Source: Pyrodictium occultum (GTDB lineage: Archaea > Thermoproteota > Thermoprotei_A > Sulfolobales > Pyrodictiaceae). From it: DNA of 32,000 nt. The stretch's first letter is position 1, and each line of letters starts with the position of its first letter. The position numbers were made by a program, and so were the translations under genes. Below, piece by piece: positions 14,859 through 32,000 of the stretch. Location of the stretch: contig NZ_LNTB01000001.1 of the NCBI RefSeq assembly GCF_001462395.1, forward strand, positions 210,001-242,000, read 5' to 3'. Under the pieces are notes generated by a model. That model saw nothing but the letters and a program-made list of their open reading frames with translations. It made no database searches and was not told the origin of the DNA.

Positions 14859-15998
14859 CTACACCTGCCCGGGGACCGCCACGCGCCCCCTCTCGGCCAT
14901 GTACTCGGCCACCCAGCCTGCAAGAGTGTCCTCGTCGACCTTCTTCATCCTTGGAGCCGCCTCCTTCAGCTTGTTCAGTATGTGCTTCACCAGGCCGGGT
15001 TCCGGGGTGAAGCCCATCCTACTCAGCGCCCACTCCACCGCCGCCCTGCCGCTGTGGCGGCCCAGCACTATCCTCCTCTTGTTGCCCACCGCCTCAGGCT
15101 CTATCGGCTCATAGGTGGCGGGGTTCCGGAGCACGCCGTGGACGTGTATACCCGCCTCGTGGGCGAACGCGTTCCTGCCGACGATAGCCTTGTTGGGCGG
15201 GACCTCGACGCCGAACTTCCTGGCTACAAGCCTCGAGACGGGAGTCAGCAGCTCCAGCCTCACCCCGGTCCTCCTGCCCATCAGGAAGTGGAGGGCGGCC
15301 ACAACCTCCTCCAGCGCCGCGTTGCCGCCCCTCTCGCCGAAGCCGTTCACGGTCACCTGGACCCCGTCGGCCCCGGCCCGGAGGCCTGCCAGCGTGTTAG
15401 CGGTAGCCAGTCCGAAGTCGTCGTGGCAGTGCACGTCTATCCACACGCCCGGGGGTAGGCTGCCGCGGACCAGGCTGACCAGCCACTCCATGTACCACGG
15501 GGTTGCGGTGCCCACGGTGTCGGGTATGTTGATGTACCTGGCGCCCGCCTCCACCACCGCCCTGTAGACCTGCACGAGGAAGCCGGGGTCGCTCCTGGTA
15601 GCGTCCTCGGCGGAGAAGAGGACCATGGCGCCATAGCTACGGGCCCTCTCGACGGCCTCAACGGCGCGCTTAATCACCTGCTCTCTTGTCATCCTCAGCT
15701 TGTACTTCATGTGCACATCGCTGGTGGCTATGAACACGTGGATTATATGGGCCTCCGCCGCCGCGGCCTCGTCAACGTCCCTTGGGCTGGCCCTGGCCAG
15801 GGCAGCTATCCTGGCGCGCGTGGCCTCGCGCACAGCAGCCTGTACAGCCCTCCGGTCTATCTCGGAGGAGGCGGGGAACCCTGCCTCTATGATGTCGACG
15901 CCCAGCTCGTCTAGCGCCCTCAGTATCTCGATCTTGTCCTTCAGGTCCAGCTCGACTCCGGGCATCTGGTCTCCGTCGCGGAGGGTTGTATCGAACAC
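14859..15998 (-). CDS. leuA: 2-isopropylmalate synthase / homocitrate synthase family enzyme, short form without the C-terminal LeuA regulatory domain
   Basis: FDTTLRDGDQ at the N-terminus and HCHDDFGLATANTLAG (DRE-TIM/HMGL-like). Only 379 aa. GTG start at 15998. Confidence 0.85.
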   Translation of the reverse strand: MFDTTLRDGDQMPGVELDLKDKIEILRALDELGVDIIEAGFPASSEIDRRAVQAAVREATRARIAALARASPRDVDEAAAAEAHIIHVFIATSDVHMKYKLRMTREQVIKRAVEAVERARSYGAMVLFSAEDATRSDPGFLVQVYRAVVEAGARYINIPDTVGTATPWYMEWLVSLVRGSLPPGVWIDVHCHDDFGLATANTLAGLRAGADGVQVTVNGFGERGGNAALEEVVAALHFLMGRRTGVRLELLTPVSRLVARKFGVEVPPNKAIVGRNAFAHEAGIHVHGVLRNPATYEPIEPEAVGNKRRIVLGRHSGRAAVEWALSRMGFTPEPGLVKHILNKLKEAAPRMKKVDEDTLAGWVAEYMAERGRVAVPGQV

Positions 15999-15999
15999 C

Positions 16000-16031
16000 C
16001 TTACGCGAGTTCCACTTTCGGCTGCACCTCC
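16000..16031 (-). promoter_or_regulatory. SD plus 4-codon uORF cassette immediately upstream of leuA
   Basis: Minus strand reads GGAGGTGCAGCCGAAAGTGGAACTCGCGTAAG. The uORF GTG GAA CTC GCG TAA (16015 down to 16001) ends 2 nt before the leuA GTG. It matches 16274-16305 at 26 of 32 positions. Confidence 0.4.
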
Positions 16032-16096
16032 TCGCCGCGCGGCCCCAGGCCCTGAACGGGCCCCGGGCCGCGTGGGCCTAGCCGGCCACGCCTAGG

Positions 16097-16149
16097 CTGT
16101 TTTAAAGTCTTTTCTACATGATAAAGTGCCTGGGCAAAGTTTTAATAGG
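16097..16149. promoter_or_regulatory. Divergent leuA / ilvB promoter island
   Basis: AT-rich GTTTTAAAGTCTTTTCTACATGATAAAGTGCCTGGGCAAAGTTTTAATAGG. TATA-like boxes at 16099-16107, 16120-16126 and 16139-16149. Confidence 0.5.
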
Positions 16150-16204
16150 GGGAGCCTGGTGGGCGCAAGTCTACCTGCCTCAGCCCTTCTGGGCTCCGCT
16201 AGGC

Positions 16205-16265
16205 GCAGGAGGTGGTCTGGATGTCAAACGTCCCGGCGTAGCAGGAGGTGGTCCGGATGTCAAAC
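16205..16265 (+). repeat. 25-nt direct repeat (2 copies, 36-nt period) in the ilvB leader
   Basis: GCAGGAGGTGGTC[T/C]GGATGTCAAAC at 16205-16229 and 16241-16265, 24 of 25 identical. Confidence 0.9.
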
Positions 16266-16273
16266 ATTTGGTA

Positions 16274-16305
16274 GGGGGTGCAGCCGGAAATGGAACTCGT
16301 ATGAG
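16274..16305 (+). promoter_or_regulatory. SD plus 4-codon uORF cassette overlapping the ilvB start
   Basis: GGGGGTGCAGCCGGAAATGGAACTCGTATGAG. The uORF ATG GAA CTC GTA TGA (16290-16304) has a stop that overlaps the ilvB ATG at 16301 (ATGA). Confidence 0.4.
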
Positions 16306-18079
16306 CCGTGTAGTGGACCACGTGGCCCGGGTCCTTAGGGAGCTCGGGGTTAGGGAGGTATTCGGCGTAACCGGCGGCAGTATAATGGGGTTCTTCGACG
16401 CCCTGGCCCTCGAGGGTATCGAGATCTACATGTTCAGGCACGAGCAGGGCGCCGCCCACGCGGCCGACGCCTACGGCAGGGTGGCCCGCAGGCCGGGCGT
16501 CGTGTCGGTGACCAGCGGTCCCGGCGCGACCAACATAGTGACCGGGATAGCCAACGCCTACTTCGACTCCGCGCCGGTGCTCGCGATAACGGGGCAGGTG
16601 CCGACAAGCGTCTTCGGCCGCGACGCGTTCCAGGAGACTGATATAGTCGGCGTCACCGCGCCAATCACCAAGTTCGTCTACCAGGTTAGGAGCCCCGGGG
16701 AAGCGGGCCCCGCGGTGAGGACCGCCTACCGCCTCGCCATCGAGGGGCGGCCCGGCCCTACCCTGGTCGACTTCCCGAGGGACGTGCAGCTGAGCAGCCA
16801 CGAGCCGGCCGACGAGCCTGACTACCTGCCGCTGAACTTCGCCAAGTACCGTCCCCCGCCGCCCGATCCCGAGGCGGTGGCTAGGGCGGCCCGGCTGCTC
16901 CTAATGGCGGCCCGCCCCGTGATACTCGTTGGCAACGGCGTCTACTGGTCCGGCGCCACCGCCGAGGTGCTGGAGCTCGCTGAGAGGCTCCAGGCCCCGA
17001 TAGTGACGACGCTGCCGGGCAAGAACGCGGTGCCCGCCGACCACCCGCTGGTGATGGGGCCAGCGGGGATGCACGGCCGTGCCGAGGCTGACGCGGCCCT
17101 CGCCAACGCCGACGTGGTGCTCGCCGTGGGCACCAGGTTCTCGGACCGCACGGTGGGGAGGTTCGGCCCCGAGCTGCTGGAGAAGAAGATAATCCATATA
17201 GACGCGGACCCGAGCGAGCACGGGAAGAACGTGCCCCCCGCAGTCAGCGTGGTGGCGGACGCGAGGCAGGCCCTCCGAGCCCTGCTGAGGGAGATCAGGG
17301 CAGCGCCGCTCCGCGACACGAGGTTCCTAGAGTGGCTCAACTGGATCCGCCGCCGCTACGAGGAGGCCATGGAGAAGCTCGCGGCCAGGTTCAGGAAGTT
17401 CCCGCCCTGGAAGGTGCTGAAGACGCTGAGGCAGGCCGTGCCCCGGAACGCTATAACGGTGACCGGGGTCGGCAGCCACCAGATGTGGGCCGAGCAGCAC
17501 TGGGACGTCTACGTGCCCGGTACATGGATTACGAGCGCCGGCCTGGGCACTATGGGGTTCTGCGTCCCAGCGGCGCTCGGGGCCAAGATAGCGGCCCGGG
17601 ACCGCACGGTGCTCTGCATCGACGGCGACGGGAGCTTCCAGATGACCATGAACAACCTGGCCCTGGTGAGGGACTACGACCTCCCGATAATAGTGACTGT
17701 GTTCGACAACCGGGCCCTCATGCTGGTGAAGCAGTGGCAGATCTACATGTACGACCGGAGGATAGTAGCCACGGAGTACAGCAGGTGGCCCTGCTTCGAG
17801 AAGATAGCCGAGGCGTATGGCATAGATGCTGTCCGGCCGGCGAGCCTCGAGGAGCTCGAGGCCGCCGTCCGCCGTGCCGCCAGGAACAACGAGCCGCTGA
17901 TAGCTATAGTTGATATCGACCGGGAGGAGGATATAGTGCTGCCCTGGGTGAAGCCCGGCGACTGGCTCACCGAGGCCATACTGCCGCCGGGCATGGAGGA
18001 TGTAAGCCTCGTCTACGACGAGAAGGAGTGGGAGAAGGTGGCCTCGGCGATAGCAGCCAAGACCGCCAGGAGTGGGTGA
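16301..18079 (+). CDS. ilvB: Acetolactate synthase (acetohydroxyacid synthase) large subunit, ThDP-dependent
   Basis: N-terminal VFGVTGGSIMGFFDAL, and the ThDP motif IDGDGSFQMTMNNL. Start set at ATG 16301, where similarity to the family begins. The track's ATG at 16118 lies inside the TATA island. Confidence 0.9.
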   Translation: MSRVVDHVARVLRELGVREVFGVTGGSIMGFFDALALEGIEIYMFRHEQGAAHAADAYGRVARRPGVVSVTSGPGATNIVTGIANAYFDSAPVLAITGQVPTSVFGRDAFQETDIVGVTAPITKFVYQVRSPGEAGPAVRTAYRLAIEGRPGPTLVDFPRDVQLSSHEPADEPDYLPLNFAKYRPPPPDPEAVARAARLLLMAARPVILVGNGVYWSGATAEVLELAERLQAPIVTTLPGKNAVPADHPLVMGPAGMHGRAEADAALANADVVLAVGTRFSDRTVGRFGPELLEKKIIHIDADPSEHGKNVPPAVSVVADARQALRALLREIRAAPLRDTRFLEWLNWIRRRYEEAMEKLAARFRKFPPWKVLKTLRQAVPRNAITVTGVGSHQMWAEQHWDVYVPGTWITSAGLGTMGFCVPAALGAKIAARDRTVLCIDGDGSFQMTMNNLALVRDYDLPIIVTVFDNRALMLVKQWQIYMYDRRIVATEYSRWPCFEKIAEAYGIDAVRPASLEELEAAVRRAARNNEPLIAIVDIDREEDIVLPWVKPGDWLTEAILPPGMEDVSLVYDEKEWEKVASAIAAKTARSG

Positions 18080-26151: not shown

Positions 26152-26229
26152 GGGCCCGTAGCTCAGCTAGGATAGAGCGCCGGCCTCCTAAGCCGGTGGT
26201 CGGGGGTTCAAATCCCCCCGGGCCCGCCA
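26152..26229 (+). tRNA. tRNA-Arg (anticodon CCT), with 3' CCA encoded
   Basis: Hand-folded cloverleaf. Acceptor GGGCCCG/CGGGCCC, D arm GCTC-AGCTAGGATA-GAGC, anticodon arm CCGGC-CTCCTAA-GCCGG, T arm GGGGG-TTCAAAT-CCCCC, discriminator G, then CCA. Confidence 0.93.
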
Positions 26230-30186: not shown

Positions 30187-30478
30187 GGCTATGGTGGTGG
30201 ACCTGGGCTTCGAGTTATCCTACCTGCTCAGTGACGCGCTCGGCCGGAGGGTGGAGGTCCAGGGCTACAGCTTCGACCCGGGGAAGGCGCTGCTCTGCAT
30301 AGACGCGCTCGTGGAGGGCAGGGGCCCGAGGAGGCTATGGTGGTGGACCTGGGCTTCGAGTTATCCTACCTGCTCAGTGACGCGCTCGGCCGGAGGGTGG
30401 AGGTCCAGGGCTACAGCTTCGACCCGGGGAAGGCGCTGCTCTGCATAGACGCGCTCGTGGAGGGCAGGGGCCCGAGGA
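30187..30478 (+). repeat. Perfect tandem duplication, 2 x 146 bp, directly abutting the 219-bp duplication
   Basis: 30187-30332 and 30333-30478 are identical. The unit covers 4 nt of leader plus the first 142 nt of the small ORF. Confidence 0.95.
30191..30448 (+). pseudogene. Frameshifted upstream copy of the small ORF, created by the 146-bp duplication
   Basis: The first 47 codons are identical to ORF 30337-30606. It then reads out of frame into the second copy (..RRLWWWTWASS..). Confidence 0.5.
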
Positions 30479-30606: not shown

Positions 30607-32000
30607 CCTCCGGGCTTCCGGAGCCTCGCTATGAAGTACCCGGTCGCCCGGTGGATGCTCGGGTGCACCCTTATGGCGTGCTCGCCGTAGAAGCCTATGC
30701 CCCGGCTGAAGCGCCTGGGCCAGGCCTCCTCGAGGCGGAGGCCCAGCTCCTCCACGGCGTAGCGCATATTCTCCTCGTTCTCGCGGAGCGTCATGGTGCA
30801 GGTGGAGTAGACCAGCACCCCGCCGGGCCGGAGGAGCCGCTGGGCGGCGCGGAGGAACCGCCTCTGGTACCGGGCGGCGGCCTCCACGTCGCGCAGCGTC
30901 TTCCGGTCCCAGACCTTGGGTATCACGCCGAGGCTGCTGCAGGGAGGGTCGAGGATAACATAGTCCGCCACCCCGGCGCCCAGTATCCTGTCAAGCCTCC
31001 TGGAGTCGGCGCGCAGCACCTCCACCCGGTGCCCCAGCCTCCTCACCTCCTCCCTGAGCCTCTCCACCTTGCCCCTGGAGTGGTCGACAGCCACCACCCG
31101 CACCCTGCCCCCGGCCAGCTCGTAGACGTGGCCGGTCTTCCCTCCCGGCGCCGCGCACATGTCTACGACCAGGGAGCCGGGCTCCGGGGATACTTGGGTA
31201 TCACGCCGAGGCTGCTGCAGGGAGGGTCGAGGATAACATAGTCCGCCACCCCGGCGCCCAGTATCCTGTCAAGCCTCCTGGAGTCGGCGCGCAGCACCTC
31301 CACCCGGTGCCCCAGCCTCCTCACCTCCTCCCTGAGCCTCTCCACCTTGCCCCTGGAGTGGTCGACAGCCACCACCCGCACCCTGCCCCCGGCCAGCTCG
31401 TAGACGTGGCCGGTCTTCCCTCCCGGCGCCGCGCACATGTCTACGACCAGGGAGCCGGGCTCCGGGGATAGGACGTGGGCGGCCATCATGGAGGAGATGC
31501 TCTGCTCGTATATCGCGCCGCTCCTCCACCACCGGGTCTCCCTGAGGCTGGGCACCCGGTAGAGGGGCTGGACGTTCTCCACCACCAGGCCCCGCCGCGC
31601 CCGGAGAGCGGCCGGAGCCTCCTGGGCCACCACCCCCAGGGCTACGGCGGCGCCGTTCTCCGCTACAACCAGCACCTCCCTGCCCGGCCGGGCGCAGTCC
31701 TCGAGCCGGACCACGCCGGGGGCGTACACGTGGGCGCCGAGCATAACGCTCTCGGCAGCCCTCTTGTCCACCACCACCCTGCAGCCCGGGTCCCGGAGCC
31801 TCGCTGGCCCCTCGACGGGTATCCAGAGCGCCTCCTCCAGCAGCTCGTCGCGGTGCACCGGGTAGCCCTCCTTCCTCATCTCGTCGAGCAGCTCCCCGGG
31901 GTCGGCGCGGAGGGTGTTGACCCGGAAGTAGTAGCGGGACGGCGGCGCGGCGAGGGCCTCGAGGAGCCTGGGGAGCCCGTGGCGGCCATAGACCCTCTCA
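30603..32000 (-). pseudogene. NOL1/NOP2/Sun (RsmB-like) RNA cytosine-C5 methyltransferase with a PUA-like domain. The frame is broken by the 278-bp duplication, and the 5' end lies beyond the window.
   Basis: N-region ..YYFRVNTLRADPGELLDEMRKEGY stays open to position 32000. PUA-like VVVDKRAAESVMLGAHVYAPGV, SAM motif DMCAAPGGKT, catalytic DPPCS and YSTCT. As sequenced it splits into ORFs 31163-31879+ and 30603-31160. Removing one repeat copy restores a single frame (..GVIPK|VWDRK..). Confidence 0.85.
30915..31470 (-). repeat. Perfect tandem duplication, 2 x 278 bp, internal to the methyltransferase gene
   Basis: 30915-31192 and 31193-31470 were compared base by base and are identical. 278 is not a multiple of 3. 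Confidence 0.95.

What the first reader, a model, noticed from the sequence alone, without database searches (positions are those of the whole stretch)
16205..16304. Tandem Shine-Dalgarno plus mini-ORF modules in the ilvB 5' leader (MSNVPA / MSNIW / MELV)
About 150 nt separate the TATA island (16097-16149) from the homology-supported ilvB ATG (16301).

A 25-nt direct repeat sits in this leader: GCAGGAGGTGGTC[T/C]GGATGTCAAAC at 16205-16229 and 16241-16265 (24 of 25 identical, 36-nt period). Each copy carries GGAGGTG, complementary to the CCUCC 3' end of 16S rRNA, with an ATG 8 nt after the GGAGG.

The resulting mini-ORFs are:
- uORF1, 16221-16241: ATG TCA AAC GTC CCG GCG TAG (MSNVPA).
- uORF2, 16257-16274: ATG TCA AAC ATT TGG TAG (MSNIW).
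- uORF3, 16290-16304: ATG GAA CTC GTA TGA (MELV), preceded by GGGGGTG.

The stop of uORF1 abuts the SD of uORF2. The two repeat copies diverge exactly after codon 3, so codon 4 is Val in one and Ile in the other. The uORF3 stop overlaps the ilvB ATG (ATGA).

Every mini-ORF contains a branched-chain codon, and ilvB encodes the first common enzyme of Val/Ile/Leu synthesis. This resembles bacterial leader-peptide logic in an archaeal setting with termination-reinitiation coupling. I am not aware that such an arrangement has been described. The alternative is that the 25-nt repeats are paired operator sites for a transcription factor.
Basis: partly seen in the sequence, partly recalled or inferred. 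Interest (0 to 1): 0.75.

Follow-up and report, generated by a model that had tools for sequence, protein, structure and literature searches.

The report
Amino-acid-sensing frameshift leaders in archaea
The tiny reading frames in front of the branched-chain amino acid genes of Pyrodictium are real and conserved, and comparison with relatives suggests ribosomes start in them and slip back one base into the enzyme frame when the matching amino acid is scarce, which would be a previously undescribed kind of amino acid sensor.

Summary
The 25-nt repeat, the strong Shine-Dalgarno (SD) sites and the three mini-ORFs lie where stated, in the ilvB leader of Pyrodictium occultum or a close relative.

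Across 12 related loci both module types are conserved: A is SD, 6 nt, start, xxA AAC, Ile/Val codon, stop; B is SD, 9-10 nt, start, GAA, Leu/Val codon, stop. Five points favour a -1 ribosomal frameshift over reinitiation:
- Every mini-ORF is in frame +1 relative to the enzyme.
- All spacers are multiples of 3 and stop-free in the enzyme frame.
- The slip-prone codon (A-AAC or G-GAA) starts 12-13 nt after the SD.
- Module codons are almost never used in the window's genes.
- Several relatives have no canonical enzyme start.

A Thermoproteus contig gives the same logic in another form: a probably leaderless +1-frame ATG, then G-GGG followed by Val, Leu and Ile codons before ilvB, and G-GGG followed by a Lys codon before homocitrate synthase.

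Best reading: frameshifting triggered by a starved codon, sensing the pathway's end product. I put the frameshift at about 0.7 and the full sensing model at about 0.55. Nothing was tested experimentally, and I found no prior description.

The parts
16140..16147 (+). TATA-like box TTTTAATA, the probable ilvB promoter. It would place the transcription start near 16165-16175, so that all three modules lie in the 5' leader and the in-frame ATG at 16118 lies outside the mRNA.
   Evidence: Conserved with the closest relative L206 (TTTTAATAGGGG). The promoter assignment and the start site are inferred, not mapped.
16208..16241 (+). Module A1 (Val). SD GGAGGTG 16208-16214; mini-ORF ATG TCA AAC GTC CCG GCG TAG 16221-16241; putative slip site A-AAC 16226-16229; sensor codon GTC (Val) 16230-16232. 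The -1 frame continues AAA CGT CCC... into ilvB.
   Evidence: The same two-copy arrangement, with GTC in copy 1, occurs in L206. The mini-ORF is in frame +1 relative to ilvB, and the -1 frame is open for 618 codons.
16244..16274 (+). Module A2 (Ile). SD GGAGGTG 16244-16250; mini-ORF ATG TCA AAC ATT TGG TAG 16257-16274; slip site A-AAC 16262-16265; sensor codon ATT (Ile) 16266-16268.
   Evidence: Conserved in all 12 related loci: start ATG/TTG (TCG in L085), xxA AAC, ATT/ATC, one variable codon, then a stop that varies among TAG, TAA and TGA.
16274..16304 (+). Module B (Leu), ilvB side. SD GGGGGTG 16274-16280; mini-ORF ATG GAA CTC GTA TGA 16290-16304; slip site G-GAA 16292-16295; sensor codon CTC (Leu) 16296-16298. 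The stop overlaps the canonical ilvB ATG at 16301.
   Evidence: Present before ilvB in 10 of 12 loci.
16001..16031 (-). Module B (Leu), leuA side. SD GGAGGTG 16031-16025; mini-ORF GTG GAA CTC GCG TAA 16015-16001; slip site G-GAA 16013-16010; sensor codon CTC 16009-16007. The -1 frame reads GGA ACT CGC GTA AGG GTG TTC GAT = ..T R V R V F D (T T L R D G).
   Evidence: Present before leuA in all 11 loci that hold leuA. The start varies among GTG, ATG and TTG (CTG in L213), and the stop is always TAA.
16301..18079 (+). ilvB, the acetolactate synthase large subunit, from the RefSeq-type start at ATG 16301. The same frame is open upstream to 16118.
   Evidence: The protein is in the 90% cluster of Pyrodictium occultum WP_083494408.1.
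14859..15998 (-). leuA-type 2-isopropylmalate synthase (HMGL-like plus HCS_D2 domains). The only canonical start, GTG at 15998, leaves 2 residues before the DTTLRDG motif. The P. occultum record annotates it from an internal Met (368 aa), which loses that motif.

Best explanation
Each module is a launch site for a -1 ribosomal frameshift that responds to amino acid supply.

Proposed steps:
1. A strong SD recruits the ribosome to the mini-ORF start, which is in frame +1 relative to the enzyme.
2. After one codon (module B) or two codons (module A), the P-site holds a slip-prone codon: G-GAA for tRNA-Glu or A-AAC for tRNA-Asn. That codon starts 12 nt after the SD. The A-site holds a codon for an end product of the pathway: Ile ATT, Val GTC or Leu CTC.
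3. If that aminoacyl-tRNA is plentiful, the codon is read, the ribosome meets a stop 1-3 codons later, and only a 4-6-residue peptide is made.
4. If it is scarce, the A-site stays empty and the P-site tRNA slips back one base, helped by the SD:anti-SD duplex that is still engaged. Translation then continues in the enzyme frame.

Predicted products are IlvB starting MSN|R.., MSN|H.. or ME|TRMSRVVDH.., and LeuA starting ME|TRVRVFDTTLRDG...

ilvB serves Val, Leu and Ile and has one module for each. leuA has only the Leu module. In this window the ATGA overlap at 16301 may add a basal reinitiation route.

What is shown: the anatomy, its conservation, the frame relations and the missing canonical starts. 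What is inferred: the frameshift itself, its dependence on tRNA charging, and any effect on the downstream operon genes.
For: 1. Frame. In 12 loci, all 35 module instances have the mini-ORF in frame +1 relative to the enzyme, and the -1 frame is open into the enzyme.

2. Phase. The distance from the first slip site to the enzyme is 90, 102, 126, 129 or 138 nt, always a multiple of 3. Duplication units of 36, 27 and 39 nt are also multiples of 3. Frame 0 is stop-free in all 12 loci, against a shuffling probability of 0.2-0.75 per locus. The +1 frame always holds the mini-ORF stops.

3. Obligatory cases.
- L212 ilvB: frame 0 is closed by a TGA inside the SD, and there is no ATG, GTG or TTG before GITGGSIM.
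- L213, L081, L204, L085 and L207 ilvB have no canonical start near the N-terminus.
- L081, L206 and L209 leuA have no canonical frame-0 start at all, with frame 0 closed just upstream in L081 and L206.
- I predicted L212 and L213 from truncated gene calls before reading their DNA.

4. The skipped residues are real protein. Distant homologs with normal starts keep R-V-V-D (IlvB) and A-R-I-R-I-F-D-T-T (LeuA). Of the 13 closest LeuA homologs, 5 are called from an internal Met that loses DTTLRDG, P. occultum included.

5. Nucleotide-level constraint. Codon 2 of module A varies at bases 1-2 (TCA/CCA/TTA) but always ends in A. In the window's genes GAA is 3/221 Glu codons, TCA 0/106, TTA 0/243, AAA 0/75 and ATT 3/125. 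The Leu and Val sensor codons are common (CTC 47%, GTC 27%), so this is not a rare-codon pause.

6. Geometry. The slip codon starts 12 nt (13 in three cases) after GGAGGTG in both module types, although their spacers differ (6 nt + 2 codons against 9 nt + 1 codon). SD stimulators of -1 shifts act 9-14 nt upstream, and one SD can serve as both initiator and stimulator (PMC5009743).

7. Mechanistic precedent. With limiting aminoacyl-tRNA, -1 frameshifting occurs by slippage of the single P-site tRNA with the A-site vacant (PMC8211752; PMC6321510).

8. Sensor matches pathway.
- Duplicated modules differ at the sensor codon and became Val by two routes: A-duplication in window/L206, and B-duplication in L082 and L208, which are not sisters in the IlvB tree.
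- In Thermoproteus sp. L002, both ilvB and a homocitrate synthase (TIGR02146 518.6 bits against cutoff 413.55) have a TATA-like box, exactly 19 nt, then an ATG in frame +1, with no canonical frame-0 start.
- There G-GGG is followed by GTC, CTC and ATC (ilvB), and G-GGG by AAA = Lys (homocitrate synthase).

9. No RNA structure competes as an explanation.
Against: - There is no experimental evidence of any kind: no transcription start, no N-terminal peptide, no ribosome footprints.
- The slip sites are single-tRNA sites, not canonical X_XXY_YYZ heptamers. G-GAA to GGA needs a G.U pair at the middle position, and A-AAC to AAA leaves a purine clash at the wobble position.
- In the window itself canonical starts exist (ATG 16301; GTG 15998), so frameshifting is not obligatory here.
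- Exceptions: L085 module A has TCG instead of a start codon, and L213 leuA module B has CTG.
- A single hungry codon may be a weak sensor.
- Almost all relatives are metagenome assemblies.
- The Thermoproteus evidence at DNA level is one contig. Its extension to Pyrobaculum is inferred from protein sequences only.
- The homocitrate synthase call rests on profile scores, and a subfamily model named 2-isopropylmalate synthase also passes.
- A relative's leuA leader (P0135) seems to carry an A-like module whose sensor codon I could not read.
- The independence of loci is limited by shared ancestry, so the probabilities quoted are rough.
Confidence: 0.55

Rival explanations
1. Constitutive (set-ratio) -1 frameshifting. 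Ribosomes do start in the mini-ORFs and slip into the enzyme frame, but at a fixed efficiency. The codon after the slip site is not a sensor of amino acid supply.
For: All the frame, phase and missing-start evidence fits this as well. ATT is a rare codon here (3/125), so a constant pause is conceivable for module A.
Against: - CTC and GTC are common codons (47% and 27%).
- The A-site codon is always an end product of the pathway: Ile, Val and Leu for ilvB, Leu only for leuA, Lys for homocitrate synthase.
- Duplicated modules diverge exactly at that codon, and to another branched-chain codon.
- A fixed low-efficiency shift would be a pointless cost compared with an ordinary start codon.
Confidence: 0.15
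2. Regulatory upstream ORFs with termination-reinitiation. Ribosomes translate the mini-ORFs, terminate, and reinitiate at the enzyme start, which overlaps or abuts the last stop. Near-cognate codons (GTA, ATA) would serve where no canonical start exists.
For: The stop of module B overlaps or abuts a possible start: ATGA in the window, GTGGTAG in L206, L208, L084, L209 and L082, and RTA-A/G elsewhere. The enzyme start has no SD of its own at normal spacing.
Against: - It does not explain the +1 frame of every module, the multiple-of-3 stop-free spacers, or module A at all.
- In L212, L207 and L085 there is no module B and no canonical start 45 nt or more downstream of the module A stop.
- In L002 the leader ORF overlaps the conserved enzyme N-terminus by 20 codons.
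- A ribosome stalled on the sensor codon would cover the enzyme start. That would lower expression in starvation, which is the wrong sign.
Confidence: 0.13
3. Ordinary long N-terminal extension. The enzyme frame is translated from an upstream in-frame start (for example ATG 16118), and the SD-like strings merely encode Gly-Gly. The out-of-frame mini-ORFs would then be incidental.
For: Frame 0 is open to 16118 in the window, and gene callers produced proteins of 599-653 aa in several relatives.
Against: - ATG 16118 lies upstream of the conserved TATA-like box.
- L206 and L212 ilvB, and L081, L206, L085 and L208 leuA, have frame 0 closed just upstream of the modules with no start in between.
- A 1-nt indel in the leuA module spacer breaks frame 0 but keeps the mini-ORF.
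- The out-of-frame start and stop codons are conserved while changing identity.
- AAA, GGA and GAA are codons these genes avoid.
- The leader peptide has no protein homologs.
Confidence: 0.05
4. Binding sites for a regulator: a transcription factor on the DNA, or an RNA-binding protein or structured RNA element in the leader.
For: The sequence blocks are repeated and conserved, and they sit in a divergent promoter region shared by two branched-chain amino acid operons.
Against: - The modules keep a fixed orientation and distance relative to the coding start, not the TATA box. They are not palindromic.
- The leader folds no better than shuffled sequence: z = +1.23, and mean z = -0.28 downstream of the slip sites, melting at 90 C.
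- Rfam finds nothing.
- A binding site would not require start and stop codons that vary in identity while keeping position and frame.
Confidence: 0.05

Closest known systems
Autoregulatory +1 frameshifting in bacterial prfB (release factor 2)
   Same: A short zero-frame ORF ends early unless the ribosome shifts. [quoted passage not shown] An upstream SD paired with 16S rRNA stimulates it. The full-length protein is made only after shifting, so efficiency reports the supply of the A-site ligand (PMC5009743).
   Different: Here the direction is -1, not +1. The SD is 11-12 nt upstream, not 3. The A-site codon is a sense codon read by an aminoacyl-tRNA, not a stop codon read by RF2. The shift occurs 2-3 codons after initiation, using the initiating SD. 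There are several tandem sensors, and the setting is Archaea.
'Hungry codon' frameshifting (Gallant and colleagues; one-tRNA -1 slippage with a vacant A-site)
   Same: The mechanism proposed here is the same: limiting aminoacyl-tRNA, an empty A-site, and peptidyl-tRNA slippage (PMC8211752; PMC5009743; PMC6321510).
   Different: It is known as an error or laboratory phenomenon. The 2016 review states that no examples are known in which it yields functional trans-frame proteins under starvation. Here it would be the programmed route to a biosynthetic enzyme.
Bacterial leader-peptide transcription attenuation (ilvGMEDA, ilvBN, leu, thr, his and trp operons; my own knowledge)
   Same: A short leader ORF upstream of amino acid biosynthesis genes contains codons for the pathway's end products and senses charged tRNA through ribosome speed. 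The codon-to-operon logic is the same: Ile, Val and Leu for ilv, Leu for leu.
   Different: There are no alternative terminator and antiterminator hairpins, and no oligo-T terminator. Each module has one sensor codon rather than a run. The output is a change of reading frame, not transcription termination. Hairpin-based switching is implausible near 100 C.
dnaX and IS-element -1 frameshifting with an upstream SD stimulator
   Same: A -1 shift stimulated by an SD 9-14 nt upstream. In one IS element a single SD acts as both initiator and stimulator.
   Different: Those use tandem-slippage heptamers (A_AAA_AAG), usually with a 3' hairpin, at a set ratio. They are not linked to amino acid supply.
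fucA1 of Saccharolobus solfataricus, the only reported archaeal cellular -1 frameshift
   Same: An archaeal cellular gene whose full-length product needs a -1 shift. P-site-only slippage has been discussed for it (PMC8211752).
   Different: fucA1 shifts at A_AAA_AAT in mid-gene between two long ORFs, with a putative hairpin and rare codons. It has no mini-ORF, no initiating SD and no link to an amino acid.

Membership tests
Programmed -1 ribosomal frameshift site | Two overlapping reading frames, with the functional downstream product in the -1 frame of the upstream ORF | tested here: met
   All 35 module instances in 12 loci, plus both L002 leaders.
Programmed -1 ribosomal frameshift site | A conserved slippery sequence that allows tRNA re-pairing in the -1 frame (classically X_XXY_YYZ) | tested here: inconclusive
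   A-AAC, G-GAA and G-GGG are invariant and allow single P-site tRNA re-pairing: perfect for G-GGG, two of three positions for the others. The classical tandem heptamer is absent.
Programmed -1 ribosomal frameshift site | A stimulatory element: an SD-like sequence 9-14 nt upstream, or a 3' structure 5-9 nt downstream | tested here: met
   The SD ends 11-12 nt before the shift site in the Pyrodictium-type modules (the rule is from PMC5009743). There is no 3' structure. The L002 leaders have no SD.
Programmed -1 ribosomal frameshift site | A trans-frame protein product demonstrated | not testable with these tools
   This needs proteomics, ribosome profiling or reporters.
Leader-peptide transcription attenuator | A short leader ORF with codons for the regulating amino acid | tested here: met
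   One such codon per mini-ORF, conserved and matched to the pathway.
Leader-peptide transcription attenuator | Mutually exclusive terminator and antiterminator RNA structures, with a terminator before the first gene | tested here: not met
   The leader folds no better than shuffles (z = +1.23). There is no conserved structure and no T-run in the leader.
Termination-reinitiation translational coupling | The upstream ORF's stop overlaps or abuts a canonical start of the downstream ORF | tested here: inconclusive
   Met in the window (ATGA) and in five relatives (GTGGTAG). Not met for ilvB in L081, L204, L213, L085, L207 and L212, nor for leuA in L081, L206, L209 and L084.
Riboswitch, T-box or other curated RNA family | A match to a covariance model, or a conserved secondary structure | tested here: not met
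   Rfam at gathering threshold finds only a tRNA elsewhere. The permissive scan finds only a 20-bit chance hit.
Transcription-factor operator | Dyad or direct-repeat site positioned relative to the promoter, with function independent of reading frame | tested here: not met
   The position is fixed relative to the coding start, the orientation is the same with respect to each gene, and start, stop and frame constraints apply. Protein binding itself is not testable here.

The most novel reading that the evidence does not exclude
Hyperthermophilic Thermoproteota regulate amino acid biosynthesis enzymes by a general sensor based on frameshifting at starved codons. Translation starts out of frame, either at an SD-led mini-ORF (Pyrodictium type) or at the 5' ATG of a leaderless mRNA (Thermoproteus type). 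It enters the enzyme frame only when the tRNA for the pathway's end product is uncharged. Sensors would be Val, Leu and Ile for IlvB, Leu for LeuA and Lys for homocitrate synthase. This would be the first natural use of hungry-codon frameshifting, the first cis-acting amino acid sensor in Archaea, and a functional replacement for hairpin-based attenuation at temperatures where RNA hairpins melt.
Probability: 0.5. Interest if true: 0.92.

Novelty: new variant of a known kind. Interest (0 to 1): 0.86.

Why it matters
- **Open question in Archaea:** how Archaea sense amino acid supply in cis is unknown. No attenuators or T-boxes are known there.
- **A programmed use of an error:** if the model holds, frameshifting at starved codons, so far regarded as a translation error, is used as a programmed switch. 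It would be built from parts that still work near 100 C (rRNA:mRNA pairing and tRNA slippage) rather than RNA hairpins.
- **Gene annotation:** it explains why the starts of ilvB, leuA and homocitrate synthase are erratically or wrongly annotated in Pyrodictium, Thermoproteus, Pyrobaculum and related metagenome-assembled genomes. P. occultum LeuA, for instance, is annotated without its catalytic DTTLRDG motif.
- **A search rule:** it gives a simple pattern for finding more cases: an out-of-frame start, a slip-prone codon, then a codon for the pathway's end product.
- **Recoding in Archaea:** it would raise the number of known archaeal cellular -1 frameshift genes from one to a family.
- **Testability:** P. 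occultum, Thermoproteus tenax and Pyrobaculum species are cultured, so the idea can be tested directly.

Tried and rejected
- **Genome-collection scan with IlvB:** swamped by universally conserved peptides. Only L001 and L002 were useful, and L002 later proved valuable.
- **Metagenome DNA-pattern scan for module B:** Only L204 was genuine. L107 looked similar but is a dehydrogenase coding motif.
- **Viral-contig scan for Pyrobaculum ilvB:** nothing found.
- **Leader peptide against 1.84 billion representative proteins:** two chance hits to repeat proteins, so frame 0 of the leader is not a protein domain.
- **Structured RNA:** no Rfam family. The leader's fold z-score is +1.23. A small hairpin over the ilvB start shows no covariation. 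There is no 3' stimulatory structure, and the predicted structures melt at 90 C.
- **Frameshifting at the mini-ORF stop codon:** rejected because the Ala tRNA cannot re-pair there.
- **Tandem X_XXY_YYZ slippage:** rejected because the codon before AAC varies (TCA, CCA, TTA).
- **Transcriptional slippage:** rejected for the Pyrodictium modules, which have no homopolymer run between the start and the shift site. It cannot be excluded for the G-runs of L002.
- **Extended 16S complementarity of module A (GGAGGTGGTC):** noted from memory of archaeal 16S 3' ends, but the rRNA is not in the window, so I did not test it.
- **General scan for SD + mini-ORF + long out-of-frame ORF:** apart from the modules it returned only scattered hits inside genes. 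The L081 ilvC hit is an ordinary start.
- **Inverted repeats I2-I9:** GC-rich chance matches.
Full report
**1. The observation**

The window is from Pyrodictium occultum or a very close relative. Its IlvB lies in the same 90%-identity cluster as WP_083494408.1, which is 592 aa and corresponds to the ATG at 16301. G+C is about 68%.

The region is a divergent branched-chain amino acid (BCAA) locus:
- Minus strand: a leuA-type synthase (14859-15998), leuB and leuC.
- Plus strand: ilvB (16301-18079), an ilvN-like ACT protein, ilvC and ilvD.

None is expected by chance.

I found two further facts. The leader is open in the ilvB frame back to 16118. The 23-27 nt before the ilvB ATG recur, inverted, just before leuA (16006-16032), giving a fourth module: GGAGGTG + 9 nt + GTG GAA CTC GCG TAA. 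Nowhere else in the 32 kb does a strong SD precede a 4-6-codon ORF as a leader element. Ordinary genes here have the SD 4-6 nt from a long ORF.

**2. Relatives**

Using IlvB homologs I retrieved 11 further distinct loci of the same clade: L081, L082 (L083 is a second copy), L084, L085, L204, L206-L209, L212 and L213 (L214 is a second copy). I also retrieved outgroups L210, L211, L001 and L002.

Two module types are conserved:

| Module | Anatomy | Where |
|---|---|---|
| A | GGAGGTGGTC nnG [A/T]TG xxA AAC ATT/ATC nnn STOP | All 12 ilvB leaders (14 instances in all) |
| A, upstream copy | As A, but with AAC GTC | Window and L206 only |
| B | GGrGGTGCAGCyGrAA(n) [A/G/T]TG GAA CTC GCn (TGG) STOP | 10 of 12 ilvB leaders; all 11 leuA leaders |
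| B, upstream copy | As B, but with GAA GTC | L082 and L208 only |

Start codons vary among ATG, GTG and TTG, and stops among TAA, TAG and TGA, at fixed positions. A 1-nt indel in three leuA modules falls in the SD-start spacer. These are signatures of real translated mini-ORFs.

**3. Why reinitiation is not enough**

- **Frame.** Every mini-ORF is in frame +1 relative to the enzyme, and the -1 frame from inside it is open into the enzyme.
- **Phase.** The distance from the first module to the enzyme is 90, 102, 126, 129 or 138 nt, always a multiple of 3. The duplication units are 36, 27 and 39 nt. The enzyme frame is stop-free in all 12 loci, against a shuffling expectation of 0.2-0.75 per locus. 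The +1 frame always holds the mini-ORF stops. The linker is not conserved as protein, and the leader peptide has no protein homologs. So the constraint is only "stay in frame and stay open".
- **Missing starts.** Several relatives cannot make the enzyme by canonical initiation.
  - In L212 (49% G+C, 759-kb contig) frame 0 is closed by a TGA inside the SD, and there is no ATG, GTG or TTG before the essential GITGGSIM motif.
  - L213, L081, L204, L085 and L207 lack a canonical start at the IlvB N-terminus.
  - L081, L206 and L209 have none for LeuA, and L084 has only a GTG inside the SD.
  - I chose L212 and L213 because gene callers had truncated their IlvB to an internal Met. The prediction that they would lack a start and carry the modules held.
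- **The skipped residues are real protein.** Distant homologs with ordinary starts keep R-V-V-D in IlvB and (A)R-I-R-I-F-D-T-T in LeuA. Of the 13 closest LeuA homologs none has a normal N-terminus. Five, including P. occultum's own annotation (368 aa), start at an internal Met after the catalytic DTTLRDG motif.

**4. The slip sites**

In module A the codon before AAC varies at bases 1 and 2 (TCA, CCA, TTA) but always ends in A, giving A-AAC. In module B the start codon's G precedes GAA, giving G-GAA.

Both allow a single P-site tRNA to re-pair one base back: AAC to AAA, as in viral U_UUA_AAC-type sites and the haloarchaeal virus sites cited, and GAA to GGA.

The codons involved are ones the seven genes of this window almost never use:

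| Codon | Use in the window's genes |
|---|---|
| GAA | 3 of 221 Glu codons |
| TCA | 0 of 106 Ser codons |
| TTA | 0 of 243 Leu codons |
| AAA | 0 of 75 Lys codons |

So they are fixed by nucleotide-level needs.

In both modules the slip codon begins 12 nt after GGAGGTG (13 in three leuA cases), although the spacers differ: 6 nt plus two codons against 9 nt plus one codon. SD-like stimulators of -1 frameshifting act 9-14 nt upstream (3 nt for +1), and one SD can be both initiator and stimulator (PMC5009743). No 3' structure exists, and the predicted structures melt at 90 C.

**5. The sensor codon**

The codon that would sit in the A-site is:
- ATT/ATC (Ile) in all 12 single or distal A modules.
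- CTC (Leu) in all proximal ilvB B modules and all leuA B modules.
- GTC (Val) in the four extra copies.

The duplicated copies differ from their partners exactly at this codon. A Val module arose by duplicating A (window and L206) and by duplicating B (L082 and L208, which are not sisters in an IlvB tree). CTC and GTC are common codons (47% and 27%), so this is not a rare-codon pause.

The leuA-type enzyme scores best with 2-isopropylmalate synthase models and poorly with citramalate synthase models, which fits a Leu-only sensor.

Reviews state that with limiting aminoacyl-tRNA, -1 frameshifting proceeds by slippage of the single P-site tRNA with a vacant A-site (PMC8211752). They also state that no natural example is known in which such 'hungry codon' shifting yields a functional product (PMC5009743).

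**6. Independent confirmation in another order**

L002 (Thermoproteus sp. UBA157; IlvB 66% identical) implements the same logic differently. Two genes there show the same layout: a TATA-like box, exactly 19 nt, then an ATG in frame +1 relative to the enzyme. That spacing is what a leaderless mRNA would show (my inference). Neither gene has a canonical frame-0 start before its conserved core.

- **ilvB leader:** ATG GAT TCG GGG GTC AGT TCG GGG CTC GAG GGG ATC... This holds three perfect G-GGG slip sites, followed by Val, Leu and Ile codons.
- **Homocitrate synthase leader:** ATG CGT TCG GGG AAA ACG TAA. Here G-GGG is followed by a Lys codon, and the -1 frame reads G E N V K I L D S T L R E G.
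- **Identity of that second enzyme:** it scores 518.6 bits with TIGR02146 against a cutoff of 413.55 and has a C-terminal Lrp/AsnC ligand-binding domain. The window's enzyme fails that model (324 bits).

So the sensor codon tracks the pathway in three enzymes.

At protein level, Pyrobaculum and Thermoproteus IlvB conserve frame-0 'NVGGxFGAxxxDxKRVVD', and LeuA conserves 'YG[FIV]GAR..F|DTT', with erratic called starts. This is what A-ATG-TCG-GGG... and ATG-GAx-TCG-GGG-CTC would encode, but I could not read their DNA.

The L210/L211 clade has a +1-frame SD-led ORF, ATG/TTG GAT TTG CGG GAA GTA. It contains G-GAA followed by Val and G-GAT followed by Leu, but also has canonical in-frame starts, so it is only suggestive.

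**7. Mechanism proposed**

The ribosome starts in the mini-ORF. If the sensor codon is read promptly, it terminates after 4-6 residues and may re-engage the next module, since the stop of A1 abuts the SD of A2. If the A-site stays empty, the P-site tRNA slips back one base, helped by the engaged SD duplex, and the enzyme is made with a short N-terminal extension.

In this window the ATGA overlap at 16301 and the GTG at 15998 may provide basal expression. An operon-wide effect through transcription-translation coupling is conceivable but purely speculative.

My estimates: about 0.7 that -1 frameshifting from these ORFs occurs, and about 0.55 for the full amino-acid-sensing model.

**8. Caveats**

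- Nothing here is experimental.
- The slip sites are non-canonical.
- Two modules lack a canonical start: TCG in L085 module A and CTG in L213 leuA.
- Most loci are metagenomic assemblies.
- Shared ancestry limits statistical independence.
- The Thermoproteus DNA evidence is one contig.
- One relative's leuA leader (P0135) seems to hold an A-like module whose sensor codon I could not read.

**9. Prior knowledge**

Searches of the held literature found no description of this arrangement. The 2021 review of archaeal recoding lists a single archaeal -1 frameshift, fucA1. The GeneTack survey does not mention these genes.

The closest known system in mechanism is prfB. The closest in logic is bacterial leader-peptide attenuation. 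This would be a new variant that joins the two.

Noticed in passing
window 30187-30478 and 30915-31470: Two perfect (100%) tandem duplications, 146 nt x2 and 278 nt x2, in a G+C-rich, apparently coding region. They could be recent duplications or assembly artefacts.
   Followed up: partly
window 14859-15998 (minus strand): The P. occultum record annotates this synthase as 368 aa starting at an internal Met. That removes the catalytic DTTLRDG motif. One source names it 'homoaconitate hydratase', which looks like a misannotation.
   Followed up: yes
window 26152-26229: A tRNA-Arg (anticodon CCT), the only RNA gene that Rfam or ARAGORN finds in the window.
   Followed up: no
protein P0135 (leuA homolog, 74-kb ENA contig; DNA not retrieved): Its over-extended N-terminus reads MGLSWSAFVVKHVGGAAENGTRIRVF|DTT. 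So in that relative the leuA leader seems to carry a module-A-like element ('VVKH') as well as module B. The sensor codon of the A-like element is unknown.
   Followed up: no
L210:1386-1420 and L211 (same region): A sister clade has a different SD-led +1-frame leader ORF, ATG/TTG GAT TTG CGG GAA GTA GGG (TAG), overlapping the ilvB start. It contains G-GAA followed by a Val codon. Canonical in-frame starts also exist there.
   Followed up: partly
proteins P0173 and P0176-P0180 (Desulfurococcales metagenome-assembled genomes): A further clade of LeuA homologs (66-70% identity) is also called from the internal Met (MAGVEL...). The missing-start phenomenon may therefore extend to more lineages.
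   Followed up: no
window 16006-16078 and 16273-16334: Apart from the module B pair (I1), one search lists several G+C-rich inverted repeats (I2-I9). They are not nested consistently and look like chance matches in G+C-rich sequence.
   Followed up: partly
literature (PMC3711429): In the 2013 GeneTack survey, Crenarchaeota had the highest density of predicted frame transitions of any phylum listed (146.8, with 60% clustered). That would fit widespread unrecognised recoding in this group.
   Followed up: no
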